DNA from: Naegleria gruberi
Lineage: Eukaryota
Assembly: GCA_000004985.1 (NCBI GenBank)
Contig: GG739563.1
DNA length: 1,098 bases
Direction: 5' to 3' (one strand)
In this document: positions 1 through 1,038 of the stretch, piece by piece
Numbering within the stretch: position 1 is the first letter of the stretch
Layout of the letters: each line of letters starts with the position of its first letter
Program-made: the position numbers and the translations under genes
Notes under the pieces: model-generated
Databases searched by the model: none
What the model was told of the DNA's origin: nothing
The model's input: the letters and a program-made list of their open reading frames with translations, nothing else

Positions 1-20
1 GTTCCAAAATTTTTTCCAGG

Positions 21-74
21 CCTCCTAAAAAAAATACGAAATTGTTTATATGACACAACAGGTCCATAAGTCAC
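21..74 (-). promoter_or_regulatory. Possible minus-strand promoter plus RBS for a gene running leftward off the window
   Basis: On the minus strand, AGGAGG (reverse complement of 21-26) is a consensus Shine-Dalgarno sequence. A -10-like TATAAA (reverse complement of 45-50) lies 18 bp below a -35-like GTGACT (reverse complement of 69-74). No ATG lies within the window; the only candidate start is TTG (reverse complement of 5-7), 13 nt after the SD. Confidence 0.25.
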
Positions 75-117: not shown

Positions 118-131
118 TTTGATATTTATTT

Positions 132-191
132 TCGCCTGAATCGCAAGTTACGAAGTAAATGACAACTCCCGAACGGCTGCGATTCAGACGA
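132..191. repeat. Long imperfect inverted repeat or hairpin: inverted half-motif GCCTGAATCGC (134-144) pairs with GCGATTCAG of the 18-mer at 179-187
   Basis: Stem is 132-145 against 178-191, 13 of 14 positions paired (10 contiguous, 136-145 with 178-187), around a 32-nt loop. The reverse complement of 134-144 is gcgattcaggc, identical to 557-567. Confidence 0.6.
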
Positions 192-196
192 TTCCG
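163..196 (+). repeat. 34-bp motif CAACTCCCGAACGGCTGCGATTCAGACGRTTCCG, copy 1 (lies outside the 373-bp repeat)
   Basis: Identical to 461-494 and 834-867 except A191 against G489/G862. Confidence 0.9.
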
Positions 197-258
197 ATGT
201 ACGAACTACTTCTCAACAGTTCCGAAAATAGACAACCATGAAGTCAGAGACCCGAAGT

Positions 259-285
259 GCATGTTTTTGGGTTTTTGAAACATGC
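259..285. repeat. Inverted repeat GCATGTTT ... AAACATGC (8 bp, 11-nt spacer) at the left boundary of the tandem repeat
   Basis: 259-266 is the reverse complement of 278-285. At the unit1/unit2 junction the half-sites are adjacent, forming the palindrome ATGTTTgAAACAT at 644-656. Confidence 0.55.
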
Positions 286-326
286 TCAAAAATCAATTTC
301 TATAAAATAAAATCTTTACAAAAGGT

Positions 327-353
327 TATATAGATAATAGATAGATATATATT
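327..353. repeat. Simple-sequence tract (TATAGATAATAGATAGATATATAT) inside a block that is about 80 bp and over 85% AT; a second copy lies at 700-726
   Basis: ATAGA recurs at 330, 337 and 341. The flanking sequence 288-365 is almost entirely A/T. Confidence 0.7.
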
Positions 354-368
354 CATAAAAATCATTGT

Positions 369-395
369 CAACTTTTGAACGGCTGGGTTCTAGCC
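369..395 (+). repeat. Diverged relative of the 34-bp motif (CAACTtttGAACGGCTGgGtTCtAGcc); a second copy lies at 742-768
   Basis: Shares the core CAACTYYYGAACGGCTG (14 of 17 positions) with 163/461/834. The downstream half resembles CGATTCAG with a 1-nt indel. Confidence 0.6.
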
Positions 396-400
396 ATTTT

Positions 401-409
401 TGATATAAT
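401..409 (+). promoter_or_regulatory. Extended -10 element TGaTATAAT (perfect TGnTATAAT); a second copy lies at 774-782
   Basis: Exact match to the extended -10 consensus. No good -35 upstream, which extended -10 promoters can tolerate. The sequence context is AT-rich, so chance matches are possible. Confidence 0.4.
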
Positions 410-415
410 AGTTAT

Positions 416-443
416 TTGACTATACAATGATATATAATAATAT
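416..443 (+). promoter_or_regulatory. Alternative sigma-A-like promoter: TTGACT (416-421), 16-bp spacer, TAATAT (438-443); a second copy lies at 789-816
   Basis: 5 of 6 match at -35, 4 of 6 at -10 with the key A2 and T6 present. Predicted transcription start near 450. Confidence 0.3.
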
Positions 444-460
444 CAATTTTTTGAGGTACC

Positions 461-494
461 CAACTCCCGAACGGCTGCGATTCAGACGGTTCCG
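461..494 (+). repeat. 34-bp motif copy 2 (inside repeat unit 1)
   Basis: 33/34 identity with 163-196. Contains the 18-mer GCGATTCAGACGGTTCCG at 477-494. Confidence 0.9.
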
Positions 495-548
495 TAATTG
501 CATAATCAATGAATGTATCGCGTAGCTAACGTTTTCACAAATAGAAGT

Positions 549-557
549 GAAGGAGGG
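549..557 (+). promoter_or_regulatory. Shine-Dalgarno-like GAAGGAGGG with no substantial ORF downstream; a second copy lies at 922-930
   Basis: Core AGGAGG at 551-556. The only in-frame start nearby overlaps the SD itself: GTG at 547-549 in unit 1 and ATG at 920-922 in unit 2. It opens a 10-codon ORF, MKEGDSGDSD, that ends at TAA 577-579 (950-952 in unit 2). Confidence 0.35.
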
Positions 558-574
558 CGATTCAGGCGATTCCG
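557..574 (+). promoter_or_regulatory. 18-bp element of two tandem 9-mers GCGATTCAG-GCGATTCCG (candidate protein-binding direct-repeat site or iteron); a second copy lies at 930-947
   Basis: Same 18-mer architecture as 179-196 (GCGATTCAG-ACGATTCCG) and 477-494/850-867 (GCGATTCAG-ACGGTTCCG). The 9-bp internal period holds in every copy. Confidence 0.45.
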
Positions 575-617
575 ATTAAGAGACCGGTGTCCATAGATTT
601 AATTTGATTATAAATAT

Positions 618-643
618 AGTGACTTTCGGAATTCACTTTTTTT
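618..643 (+). terminator. Weak intrinsic-terminator-like hairpin plus T7 run at the end of repeat unit 1; a second copy lies at 991-1016
   Basis: AGTGA (618-622) pairs with TCACT (633-637) around a 10-nt loop, followed by TTTTTTT (637-643). The stem is only 5 bp with 2 GC pairs, so terminator strength is doubtful. Confidence 0.3.
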
Positions 644-833
644 ATGTTTGAAACATGCTCAAAAATCAATTTCTATAAAATAAAATCTTTACAAAAGGTT
701 ATATAGATAATAGATAGATATATATTCATAAAAATCATTGTCAACTTTTGAACGGCTGGGTTCTAGCCATTTTTGATATAATAGTTATTTGACTATACAA
801 TGATATATAATAATATCAATTTTTTGAGGTACC

Positions 834-867
834 CAACTCCCGAACGGCTGCGATTCAGACGGTTCCG
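834..867 (+). repeat. 34-bp motif copy 3 (inside repeat unit 2)
   Basis: Identical to 461-494 (+373). Confidence 0.9.
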
Positions 868-909
868 TAATTGCATAATCAATGAATGTATCGCGTAGCT
901 AACGTTTTC

Positions 910-920
910 AAAAAAAAAAA
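910..920. repeat. A11 homopolymer tract, present only in repeat unit 2
   Basis: Unit 1 has acaaatagaagt at the homologous position 537-548. Four point differences, all to A, separate the two copies. Confidence 0.9.
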
Positions 921-1020
921 TGAAGGAGGGCGATTCAGGCGATTCCGATTAAGAGACCGGTGTCCATAGATTTAATTTGATTATAAATATAGTGACTTTC
1001 GGAATTCACTTTTTTTACAT

Positions 1021-1038
1021 TCGATTTAGACGATTTAA
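1021..1038 (+). promoter_or_regulatory. Degenerate sixth copy of the 18-mer (TCGATTTAG-ACGATTTAA), 6 bp upstream of TATAAT at 1045-1050
   Basis: CGATT at 1022 and 1031 keeps the 9-bp phasing. The same 6-bp gap separates the 18-mer at 477-494 from the -10-like CATAAT at 501-506 (and 850-867 from 874-879). Confidence 0.35.

What the first reader, a model, noticed from the sequence alone, without database searches (positions are those of the whole stretch)
163..867. Larger 34-bp conserved element and its diverged relatives mark several rounds of internal duplication
CAACTCCCGAACGGCTGCGATTCAGACGRTTCCG is present at 163-196 (outside the tandem repeat) and at 461-494 and 834-867 (inside it), with a single A/G difference. 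A diverged version, CAACTTTTGAACGGCTGGGTTCTAGCC, lies at 369-395 and 742-768. The region therefore grew by repeated duplication of a roughly 30-bp building block before the 373-bp duplication. The invariant core CAACTYYYGAACGGCTG may itself be a recognition sequence. In one frame the 34-mer reads TPERLRFRRFR, but no credible ORF or RBS supports translation.
Basis: seen in the sequence. Interest (0 to 1): 0.5.

Follow-up and report, generated by a model that had tools for sequence, protein, structure and literature searches.

The report
Conserved spacer motif, Naegleria rDNA plasmid
The repeated 34-base element is real, but it lies in the non-coding spacer of the circular ribosomal-DNA plasmid of the amoeba Naegleria, not in a bacterium, and its core GAACGGCTG is the most conserved word in that spacer across four Naegleria lineages, so it is a testable candidate control site for transcribing or replicating the plasmid.

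Summary
The 34-mer lies at 163, 461 and 834, and the diverged copy at 369 and 742, against 0 copies expected by chance. The window is 99% identical to metagenome contigs that carry eukaryotic 18S, 5.8S and 28S rRNA genes. A spacer ORF on these contigs clusters with Naegleria gruberi CERE proteins. The window therefore lies in the non-ribosomal spacer of an N. gruberi-type circular rDNA plasmid (CERE), 2245 to 1148 nt upstream of 18S, on the rRNA sense strand.

The 34-mer is composite. CAACTCCCG and GAACGGCTG occur across the genus. CGATTCAGRCGATTC occurs only in two lineages. In an unbiased screen of four Naegleria spacers, GAACGGCTG is the top shared 9-mer (2-5 copies per spacer against about 0.01 expected), and it is mostly in the sense orientation. 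Between two lineages whose spacers are only about 60-70% identical, 27 nt of the 34-mer are invariant. A colinear array of four units spaced about 90 bp apart predates their split. The 373-bp duplication is a recent copy-number polymorphism.

There is no support for an ORF, a hairpin or complementarity to rRNA. The elements are most likely protein-binding sites of the rDNA spacer. A role in Pol I upstream, enhancer or spacer-promoter control is favoured, a replication-origin role is the main rival, and neither has been tested.

The parts
163..196 (+). 34-mer copy 1, made of CAACTCCCG + GAACGGCTG + CGATTCAGACGATTCCG. It is the right arm of an inverted pair with 129-144.
   Evidence: The same arrangement exists in L122 at 5229-5298, but the segment is inverted there.
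129..144 (-). Inverted stand-alone copy of the right-half motif. On the minus strand it reads ACTTGCGATTCAGGCGAAAA.
   Evidence: (inverted repeats I6-I8).
369..395 (+). Block A (unit 1 of the array): CAACTTTTGAACGGCTGGGTTCTAGCC. It has syntenic counterparts in three other Naegleria lineages.
   Evidence: N. andersoni-type L158 has TAACTTTTGAACGGCTGGGTTTTAGGCC, and N. fowleri has GAACGGCTCGTTTCTAGGCG.
396..460 (+). AT-rich 65-nt spacer between block A and the 34-mer. It contains the partly conserved words GATATAA, TATA and GATATA and a T-run.
   Evidence: Alignments A1 and A3. The bacterial-type promoter hits here are not relevant in a eukaryote.
461..494 (+). 34-mer copy 2 (unit 2 of the array). 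Its first 27 nt are invariant in lineage L122/L123.
541..574 (+). Unit 3: GAAGGAGG followed by GCGATTCAGGCGATTCCG. The homologous site in L122 reads GGAGAGGGTTCCAGTCAATTC.
742..768 (+). Block A, second copy, produced by the 373-bp duplication.
834..867 (+). 34-mer copy 3, produced by the 373-bp duplication.
914..947 (+). Unit 3, second copy. Its upstream stretch is a poly-A variant.
1021..1036 (+). Unit 4: degenerate right-half motif TCGATTTAGACGATTT directly after a T7 run. It is syntenic with TTTTTTTTTGACTTTCGAATCAGGAC in L122.
274..1017 (+). Two tandem copies of a 373-bp unit, joined at T-runs. This is a copy-number polymorphism among Naegleria gruberi-type CEREs.
   Evidence: The N. gruberi EGB CERE is reported to have repeats of 34 to 371 bp (PMC5805870).
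6..41 (+). Separate 36-nt conserved island, 92% identical in L122/L123.

Best explanation
What is shown: the window is part of the non-ribosomal spacer (NRS) of a Naegleria gruberi-type closed circular extrachromosomal rDNA element (CERE). It spans -2245 to -1148 relative to the 18S 5' end and reads in the same direction as the rRNA. The 34-mer is a composite of short conserved DNA words. CAACTCCCG and GAACGGCTG are conserved across the genus. CGATTCAGRCGATTC is restricted to two lineages. Four such units sit about 90 bp apart, roughly 0.3-0.8 kb upstream of where the GC-rich 5' external transcribed spacer begins, and further copies lie upstream.

What is inferred: these words are recognition sites for one or more sequence-specific DNA-binding proteins. 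The AACGG core resembles a Myb-type site, but that resemblance is recalled from memory and was not tested. I infer that the array works like the repeated upstream elements of other rDNA spacers, namely enhancer, spacer-promoter or promoter-proximal elements that load or organise the RNA polymerase I machinery ahead of the gene promoter. The 373-bp duplication only adds one more set of sites and varies between plasmids.
For: Identity of the locus:
- L147 matches all 1098 nt at 99.3% and carries SSU, 5.8S and LSU rRNA on the same strand, in a 13,799-bp unit.
- The spacer ORF cluster includes N. gruberi NEG-M and EGB CERE proteins BAF74738.1 and AUH25139.1.
- The published EGB spacer has repeat families of '34 bp to 371 bp'.

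Constraint on the motif:
- Between lineages with about 60-70% background identity, 27 nt of the 34-mer and GAACGGCTGGGTTC are invariant, and the four-unit array is colinear.
- An unbiased word screen over four spacers ranks GAACGGCT, AACGGCTG and GAACGGCTG first. There are 2-5 copies per spacer against about 0.01 expected for the 9-mer.
- AACGGCT counts, sense/antisense, are 6/0, 2/2, 3/1 and 11/2. Markov simulations give a mean of 0.3 and a maximum of 3.
- N. fowleri, whose spacer is otherwise unalignable, has the word in six independent sequence contexts.

Promoter-like modules:
- In N. fowleri three independent contexts show AACGGCT-N32-GACTT(A/G)T..GGGG.
- N. fowleri and the N. andersoni-type lineage share AACGGCT-N25-GACAGGTRAC.
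- Block A of the window has GACTATAC at nearly the same offset, 34 nt after AACGGCT.

Position and exclusions:
- No copy lies in the first ~3.6 kb after the 28S gene. A different repeat, CTCGACTTG followed by a T-run, occupies the terminator-like position.
- Structure is not what is conserved.
Against: - No experiment or transcript data bear on function, and the Pol I start site of Naegleria is unmapped.
- The putative gene promoter just upstream of TCGACCCCCCC carries no GAACGGCTG copy in the N. gruberi type.
- The similarity between the 34-mer and the start of the ETS is not above shuffled controls. The classic sign of spacer promoters, homology to the gene promoter, is therefore missing.
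- In N. fowleri the copies spread over about 5 kb of spacer rather than clustering near the promoter.
- A single replication origin is known to lie somewhere in the N. gruberi spacer, and its coordinates could not be read here. An origin role fits the same data almost as well.
- The comparison rests on only four full spacers plus one partial. The N. fowleri sequence was retyped from PDF text.
Confidence: 0.42

Rival explanations
1. Origin-of-replication elements. The GAACGGCTG/CAACTCCCG sites flanking AT-rich stretches are where the plasmid's initiator (ORC or an accessory factor) binds. They would define the single CERE origin, much as type I elements do in the Tetrahymena rDNA 5' spacer.
For: - A single origin maps to a 2.1-kb spacer fragment in N. 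gruberi, and a 636-bp piece is used as 'the origin' in vectors.
- The array lies in the promoter-proximal spacer, where rDNA origins lie in several other protists and in yeast (my own knowledge).
- GC-rich conserved islands flank a 65-nt stretch that is about 85% AT.
- The elements sit inside a duplicated ~370-bp domain, as in Tetrahymena.
- The motif is conserved across the genus although the spacers are otherwise unalignable.
Against: - The coordinates of the mapped origin were not available, so no overlap is shown.
- There are no exact matches to the yeast ARS consensus.
- There is no complementarity to rRNA of the kind used by Tetrahymena ORC; the longest match is 9 nt, with E about 0.8.
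- In N. fowleri the copies are scattered over 5 kb, which is odd for a single origin.
Confidence: 0.28
2. Polar Pol I terminators or replication-fork barriers. A Myb-like factor of the TTF-I/Reb1 type binds the sites in one orientation. It would stop spacer or read-through transcription before the promoter and block head-on forks.
For: - The sites are biased towards the rRNA sense orientation: 22 sense against 5 antisense AACGGCT over four spacers.
- T-runs lie directly upstream of several copies: units 2 and 4 in the window, and several N. fowleri copies.
- The AACGG core is Myb-like (from memory).
Against: - No copy lies within ~3.6 kb downstream of the 28S gene, where terminators and barriers normally sit.
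- A better candidate occupies that place in all lineages: tandem CTCGACTTG repeats followed by T-runs.
- Other copies are preceded by A-runs instead of T-runs.
Confidence: 0.1
3. No function. The words are leftovers of repeated internal duplication and gene conversion in a fast-evolving, repeat-rich spacer.
For: - CERE spacers are 31-65% repetitive, and repeat copy number varies within strains.
- The 373-bp duplication itself is polymorphic.
- Within L122 the two neighbouring units have become more alike than their counterparts in the window.
Against: - Duplication cannot explain the same 9-mer being the top shared word in four lineages whose spacers otherwise share no BLAST-detectable similarity.
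- It cannot explain six independent flanking contexts in N. fowleri.
- It cannot explain sharp conserved islands in a ~60-70% background.
Confidence: 0.1
4. Target sites of the spacer-encoded His-Cys box (I-PpoI-like) protein. The long invariant 27-mer, or the CGATTCAG half, would be bound or nicked by the free-standing homing-endonuclease-like ORF located downstream of the 28S gene. This could serve, for example, plasmid amplification or recombination.
For: - A 344-355 aa PF05551 ORF is conserved (58-99% identity) about 600 nt downstream of the 28S gene in N. gruberi-type CEREs.
- The length of the invariant stretch (27 nt) is in the range of homing-endonuclease sites (my own knowledge).
- CGATTCAG occurs only in the two lineages that have such an ORF or a remnant of one.
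Against: - The co-occurrence rests on three lineages.
- The ORF in L122 is a 32%-identical antisense remnant, yet the 27-mer there is intact.
- The authors of the EGB sequence regard the ORF as a likely pseudogene.
- GAACGGCTG is conserved in lineages without the ORF.
Confidence: 0.05
5. RNA-level element. The repeats would be transcribed and act as a structured or protein-binding RNA.
For: Terminator-like hairpins followed by T-runs were called at 381-395 and 754-768.
Against: - There is no Rfam match; the best hit has E = 1.7.
- Folding energies are no better than shuffles, with z from -0.02 to -1.3, and a different fold is predicted in each homologue.
- Read from the sequences, substitutions in N. 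fowleri break two of the six stem pairs of the block-A hairpin.
Confidence: 0.03

Closest known systems
Repeat families of the Naegleria gruberi CERE non-ribosomal sequence (Mullican et al. 2018, PMC5805870; Maruyama & Nozaki 2007)
   Same: It is the same molecule and region. The window is 99% identical to contigs whose spacer ORF clusters (at least 90% identity) with the ORFs annotated on the NEG-M and EGB CEREs. The published repeat sizes (34 to 371 bp) match the 34-mer and the 371/373-bp duplication.
   Different: The papers I could read report only counts and sizes of repeats. They state that spacers are poorly conserved and that the cis elements for replication and transcription are unknown. 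None of them describes the word GAACGGCTG, its conservation across the genus, or its orientation bias.
Tetrahymena thermophila rDNA 5' non-transcribed spacer: type I elements within tandemly duplicated ~430-bp origin domains (from memory)
   Same: Both are extrachromosomal rDNA. Both have a ~33-nt element repeated in one orientation upstream of the rRNA gene, partly inside a tandemly duplicated domain of a few hundred bp and flanked by AT-rich DNA.
   Different: Type I elements are A/T-rich, whereas these are GC-rich islands. The Tetrahymena duplication is fixed, whereas this one is polymorphic. No complementarity to rRNA was found. An origin function has not been shown here.
Spacer enhancer and spacer-promoter repeats of Xenopus, Drosophila, mouse and plant rDNA (from memory)
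   Same: Both are arrays of short, similarly oriented repeats upstream of the gene promoter, with variable copy number and recurrent association with promoter-like sequences. In N. fowleri the association is with GACTTATAGGGGGGG modules.
   Different: Homology to the gene promoter, which defines those repeats, was not detectable here. The array has only four diverged units at ~90-bp spacing rather than dozens of near-identical copies.
Sal-box/TTF-I and Reb1-type Pol I terminators and fork barriers (from memory)
   Same: Both are short, orientation-biased, repeated protein sites in the rDNA spacer. They share a Myb-like AACGG core and, in some copies, an upstream T-run.
   Different: These sites are not located after the 28S gene. 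A different conserved repeat (CTCGACTTG plus a T-run) holds that position.
Bacterial REP, MITE or iteron elements
   Same: Both are short repeated non-coding DNA.
   Different: This is a eukaryotic rDNA plasmid. There is no palindromic hairpin. No terminal inverted repeats or target-site duplications were seen. The spacing is not regular like that of iterons, and no copies were found dispersed in bacterial collections.

Membership tests
Naegleria CERE non-ribosomal spacer repeats | Lies on a ~14-16 kb unit carrying one 18S-5.8S-28S cistron | tested here: met
   L147 has SSU at 1463-3482, 5.8S at 3516-3660 and LSU at 3808-7263, and the window at 13017-14114. The unit repeats after 13,799 bp.
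Naegleria CERE non-ribosomal spacer repeats | Organism is Naegleria | tested here: met
   The spacer ORF cluster contains BAF74738.1 and AUH25139.1 of N. gruberi. Intron endonuclease relatives are named N. italica, N. andersoni, N. gruberi and others. GIR1 twin-ribozyme introns are present in L122, L124, L158 and L162.
Naegleria CERE non-ribosomal spacer repeats | Repeat sizes reported for N. gruberi EGB (34 bp to 371 bp) | tested here: met
   The window has a 34-nt family and a 373-bp tandem duplication that BLAST aligns over 371 nt, against the text of PMC5805870. A direct alignment to MG699123 was not possible.
Bacterial REP / MITE | Dispersed copies in bacterial genomes, plasmids or phages | tested here: not met
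   There is no plasmid hit and only one trivial phage hit. None of the 120 loci it returned matched the window beyond about 22 nt, so the test is incomplete.
Bacterial REP / MITE | Stable imperfect palindrome (hairpin) | tested here: not met
   DNA folding of five homologues gives z-scores from -0.02 to -1.3 and inconsistent structures.
Spacer promoter / enhancer repeats of rDNA | Repeated array upstream of the gene promoter in the same orientation | tested here: met
   Four colinear units at ~90-bp spacing lie 0.3-0.8 kb upstream of the GC-rich ETS start in two lineages. The sense bias is shown.
Spacer promoter / enhancer repeats of rDNA | Sequence homology to the gene promoter or initiation region | tested here: inconclusive
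   Similarity of the 34-mer to the start of the ETS scores 19.5, against a mean shuffled maximum of 19.5-21. The true start site is unknown. In N. fowleri the word GACTTATAGGGGGGG recurs both in the repeats and near the ETS.
Spacer promoter / enhancer repeats of rDNA | Stimulates or initiates Pol I transcription | not testable with these tools
   This needs transcription assays or nascent-RNA mapping.
TTF-I / Reb1-type terminators | Cluster just downstream of the 28S 3' end | tested here: not met
   There is no AACGGCT in the first ~3.6 kb of the N. gruberi-type spacer or in the first ~2.9 kb in N. fowleri.
TTF-I / Reb1-type terminators | Orientation-dependent sites bound by a Myb-like factor | tested here: inconclusive
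   An orientation bias of 22:5 was observed. Factor binding is not testable here, and the Myb resemblance is recalled from memory only.
Tetrahymena type I origin elements | Complementarity to the 3' part of large-subunit rRNA (26T RNA pairing) | tested here: not met
   The longest match of any motif copy to the rDNA or ETS is 9 nt, with E about 0.8.
Tetrahymena type I origin elements | Coincide with the mapped origin of replication | not testable with these tools
   The coordinates of the N. gruberi origin fragment (Mullican 2019) were not readable. Only its existence is cited.
Plasmid iterons | Regularly spaced (~22 bp) direct repeats next to an initiator gene | tested here: not met
   Spacings are 80-300 nt, and there is no adjacent initiator gene.

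The most novel reading that the evidence does not exclude
GAACGGCTG/CAACTCCCG modules are the sequence-specific recognition elements of the single CERE replication origin. Naegleria would then be a rare eukaryote with a sequence-defined origin, and the module would be a portable replicator for the episomal vectors that the field lacks.
Probability: 0.25. Interest if true: 0.7.

Novelty: new member of a known kind. Interest (0 to 1): 0.4.

Why it matters
All rRNA genes of Naegleria, including the brain-eating N. fowleri, sit on about 4000 copies of this plasmid. The papers I read state that the sequences governing its replication, origin licensing and rRNA transcription are unknown. They also state that poor spacer conservation makes them hard to find by comparison. 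A short word that is the top shared, orientation-biased motif in four otherwise diverged spacers gives a concrete site to mutate, footprint or place on a vector. That turns an open question into a direct experiment. For the scan itself, the main lesson is that an apparently bacterial AT-rich intergenic region was a eukaryotic rDNA spacer.

Tried and rejected
- **Bacterial reading.** The largest ORF is 39 aa, and none of five window ORFs is on record as a called gene. Sigma-70 promoter counts equal the shuffled expectation, at 7 against 5.4. Rfam gives nothing below E = 1.7. BLAST against plasmids gives nothing, and BLAST against phages gives one 50-nt AT-rich hit.
- **Poorly chosen scan.** None matched the window beyond about 22 nt. 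That collection holds only bacteria and archaea. Viral contig scans gave single isolated matches, with no multi-copy locus like the window's.
- **Tetrahymena-like pairing to rRNA.** No match longer than 9 nt was found.
- **Hairpin or cruciform.** Folding is not better than shuffles.
- **Yeast ARS consensus.** There is no exact match in any spacer.
- **34-mer as a copy of the ETS start or promoter.** A resemblance seen by eye (CCCGAA..CTG..TTCAG..TTCC) did not exceed shuffled controls.
- **BLAST-level alignment of N. gruberi-type and N. fowleri spacers.** Only the 3' ETS, low-complexity runs and a 12-mer align.
- **Origin coordinates.** The Protist 2019 paper is not held, and the vector supplements lack the 636-bp sequence.
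- **In-frame RFRRFR reading.** This reading of the right half is a by-product of the 9-nt periodic CGATTCNGR repeat and is not coding.
Full report
The 34-mer CAACTCCCGAACGGCTGCGATTCAGACGRTTCCG is at 163-196, 461-494 and 834-867 with one A/G difference. The diverged form CAACTTTTGAACGGCTGGGTTCTAGCC is at 369 and 742. Both halves occur five times against 0.00 expected in dinucleotide shuffles. The right half also stands alone at 557-574 and 930-947. It is degenerate at 1021-1036 and inverted at 129-144. TRF finds two copies of a 373-bp unit at 274-1017.

**2. The bacterial frame fails.** The longest ORF is 39 aa. Promoter-like hits equal the shuffled expectation. Rfam finds nothing, and plasmid and phage collections hold nothing similar. 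None of those loci matched the window beyond about 22 nt.

**3. What the locus is.** A 20-mer scan of metagenome contigs found three loci.
- L124 matches the window at 99% but has only one 373-bp unit.
- Rfam shows that L124 and L122 carry eukaryotic LSU, 5.8S and SSU rRNA and the GIR1 branching ribozyme.
- A His-Cys box ORF downstream of the LSU led to L147. This 23-kb contig repeats after 13,799 bp. It holds SSU, 5.8S and LSU on the plus strand and matches all 1098 nt of the window, duplication included, at 99.3%.
- The ORF-like stretch in the 5' ETS clusters at 90% identity or more with BAF74738.1 and AUH25139.1, the ORFs annotated on the N. gruberi NEG-M and EGB rDNA plasmids.
- The EGB paper describes 7 repeat families of '34 bp to 371 bp' in the spacer.

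The window is therefore the non-ribosomal spacer of an N. gruberi-type CERE, from -2245 to -1148 relative to the 18S 5' end, on the rRNA sense strand. The GC-rich, conserved 5' ETS begins about 250 nt downstream of the window's end, at TCGACCCCCCC.

**4. The duplication is recent and polymorphic.** Two copies are present in L147 and L148. One copy is present in L124, L152, L154 and L155, all 97-99% identical to the window over their aligned parts. The junction lies in T-runs. The two copies differ at 538-547 and 645-646. Each variant at 538-547 resembles a different single-copy haplotype. A similar ~360-bp copy-number heterogeneity is reported for N. australiensis.

**5. Comparison with a second lineage (L122/L123).** The intron endonuclease of this lineage is 89% identical to that of N. 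italica.
- The spacers are colinear over about 360 nt with roughly 60-70% background identity. Within that background, CAACTCCCGAACGGCTGCGATTCAGAC (27 nt) and GAACGGCTGGGTTC are invariant (alignments A1 and A3).
- Four units follow one another at ~90-bp spacing in both lineages. At unit 3, L122 has GGGTTCCAGTC where the window has GCGATTCAGGC, so the two variants replace each other.
- The inverted pair at 129-196 also exists in L122, but the whole segment is inverted there.
- The octamer CGATTCAG occurs 8-10 times per locus against 0.1-0.4 expected.

**6. Wider comparison.** I read the N. fowleri TY CERE from a paper's supplement and typed its last 7069 nt into a script. I also retrieved an N. 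andersoni-type CERE (L158) and a partial, more distant one (L162) through the intron endonuclease.
- N. gruberi-type and N. fowleri spacers share no BLAST-detectable similarity apart from the 3' ETS and low-complexity runs.
- In an unbiased screen for words present in all four full spacers, counting only independent flanking contexts, GAACGGCT, AACGGCTG and GAACGGCTG rank first at k = 8 and 9. Each spacer has 2-5 copies against about 0.01 expected for the 9-mer.
- AACGGCT counts, sense/antisense, are 6/0, 2/2, 3/1 and 11/2. Markov simulations give a mean of 0.3 and a maximum of 3.
- AACTCCCG occurs 3-4 times in four lineages against about 0.05 expected. N. fowleri has CCCAACTCCTCAATGGCTGC at -2340.
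- CGATTCAG is absent from N. fowleri and L158.
- The 34-mer is thus a fusion of two genus-wide words and one clade-specific word.
- Block A has close counterparts at comparable positions, -1.3 to -1.9 kb. L158 has TAACTTTTGAACGGCTGGGTTTTAGGCC, and N. fowleri has GAACGGCTCGTTTCTAGGCG.

**7. What it is not.** It is not coding. It is not a conserved hairpin, since folding z-scores run from -0.02 to -1.3 and the predicted folds differ between homologues. Read from the sequences, N. fowleri substitutions break two of the six stem pairs of the block-A hairpin. It is not complementary to rRNA. It is not an ARS consensus. It is not detectably a copy of the ETS start.

**8. What it most likely does.** Sharp conserved islands, repetition, orientation bias and independent flanking contexts point to protein recognition sites.
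- No copy lies in the first ~3 kb after the 28S gene. That position is held in all lineages by another shared repeat, CTCGACTTG followed by a T-run, which starts right after the stop of the His-Cys box ORF in the N. gruberi type. That repeat is the better terminator candidate.
- The GAACGGCTG modules cluster in the promoter-proximal spacer of the N. gruberi type, L122 and L158.
- In N. fowleri they recur with fixed spacing to promoter-like words. AACGGCT-N32-GACTT(A/G)T..GGGG appears in three independent contexts. AACGGCT-N25-GACAGGTRAC is shared with L158.
- I therefore favour a role as upstream, enhancer or spacer-promoter elements for RNA polymerase I (0.42).
- The main rival is a role at the single replication origin known to lie in the spacer (0.28), whose coordinates I could not obtain.
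- The Myb-like appearance of AACGG is a recollection, not a test.

**9. Novelty.** The repeats as such are already published as sizes and counts. What I did not find in the papers I could read is a defined motif, its conservation across the genus, or its orientation bias. Those papers say the spacer is poorly conserved and its cis elements are unknown. This makes it a new member of a known kind, namely rDNA spacer cis-elements. It is of moderate interest and directly testable.

Noticed in passing
window 48-62 and 103-117: A perfect 15-nt inverted repeat, ATATGACACAACAGG / CCTGTTGTGTCATAT, with the arms 40 nt apart, lies just upstream of the first motif pair.
   Followed up: no
window 6-41; L122 5758-5793: A 36-nt island (AAAATTTTTTCCAGGCCTCCTAAAAAAAATACGAAA) is 92% conserved between two lineages in an otherwise diverged stretch.
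   Followed up: partly
L147 about 9027 and 9146 (spacer positions 1764 and 1883); L122 about 750-1110 and 2600-2720; N. fowleri TY just after the 28S gene: (T)CTCGACTTG(G/T)AAATTTTTT occurs as sense-oriented tandem repeats in the 28S-proximal spacer of all lineages. TCTCGACTT is the second-best shared 9-mer in the four-spacer screen. In the N. gruberi type the repeats begin right after the stop of the His-Cys box ORF. They are candidate Pol I terminators and resemble the Xenopus T3 box GACTTGC (that resemblance is from memory).
   Followed up: partly
L124 6341-7408 (-); L147 7861-8916 (+): A free-standing His-Cys box (PF05551, I-PpoI-like) ORF of 344-355 aa lies about 600 nt downstream of the 28S gene. 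Copies are 58-99% identical between contigs. Only a 32%-identical antisense remnant exists in L122, and none in L158. The CGATTCAG motif is found only in the lineages that have this ORF or its remnant.
   Followed up: partly
L124 12619-14434 versus L122 8145-9960; L147 and L152: L124 carries the SSU twin-ribozyme intron (GIR1), while L147 and L152, whose spacers match the same window at 99%, lack it. The L124 intron is 99.4% identical to that of L122, whose spacer belongs to a different lineage. This reflects either intron presence/absence polymorphism or homing, or a chimeric metagenome assembly across the conserved SSU.
   Followed up: no
window 538-547 versus 911-920: The two copies of the 373-bp unit differ in one short stretch (CACAAATAGAAGTG against a poly-A variant). 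L124 carries the first variant, and L152, L154 and L155 carry a form close to the second. The single-copy plasmids may therefore be alternative deletion products of a two-copy ancestor, or the duplication arose by unequal exchange between two haplotypes.
   Followed up: partly
L124 about 885-900 (-); L122 about 6745; L158 about 6390: TCGACCCCCCC (TCAACCCCCC in L122) marks the switch from the AT-rich spacer to the GC-rich conserved 5' ETS in three lineages. It is a candidate neighbourhood for the unmapped Pol I start site.
   Followed up: no
L147 spacer positions 3529 and 5657; N. fowleri TY at about -1380 from 18S: The 12-mer ACTTGCGAATTT is shared by the N. gruberi-type (twice) and N. fowleri spacers. 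It resembles the ACTTGCGATTCAG form of the right-half motif.
   Followed up: no
L027 870-923 (Defluviitaleaceae MAG): This bacterial contig holds about 10 near-copies of the 18-mer GCGATTCAGRCGRTTCCG. They are probably an unrelated short tandem repeat.
   Followed up: no
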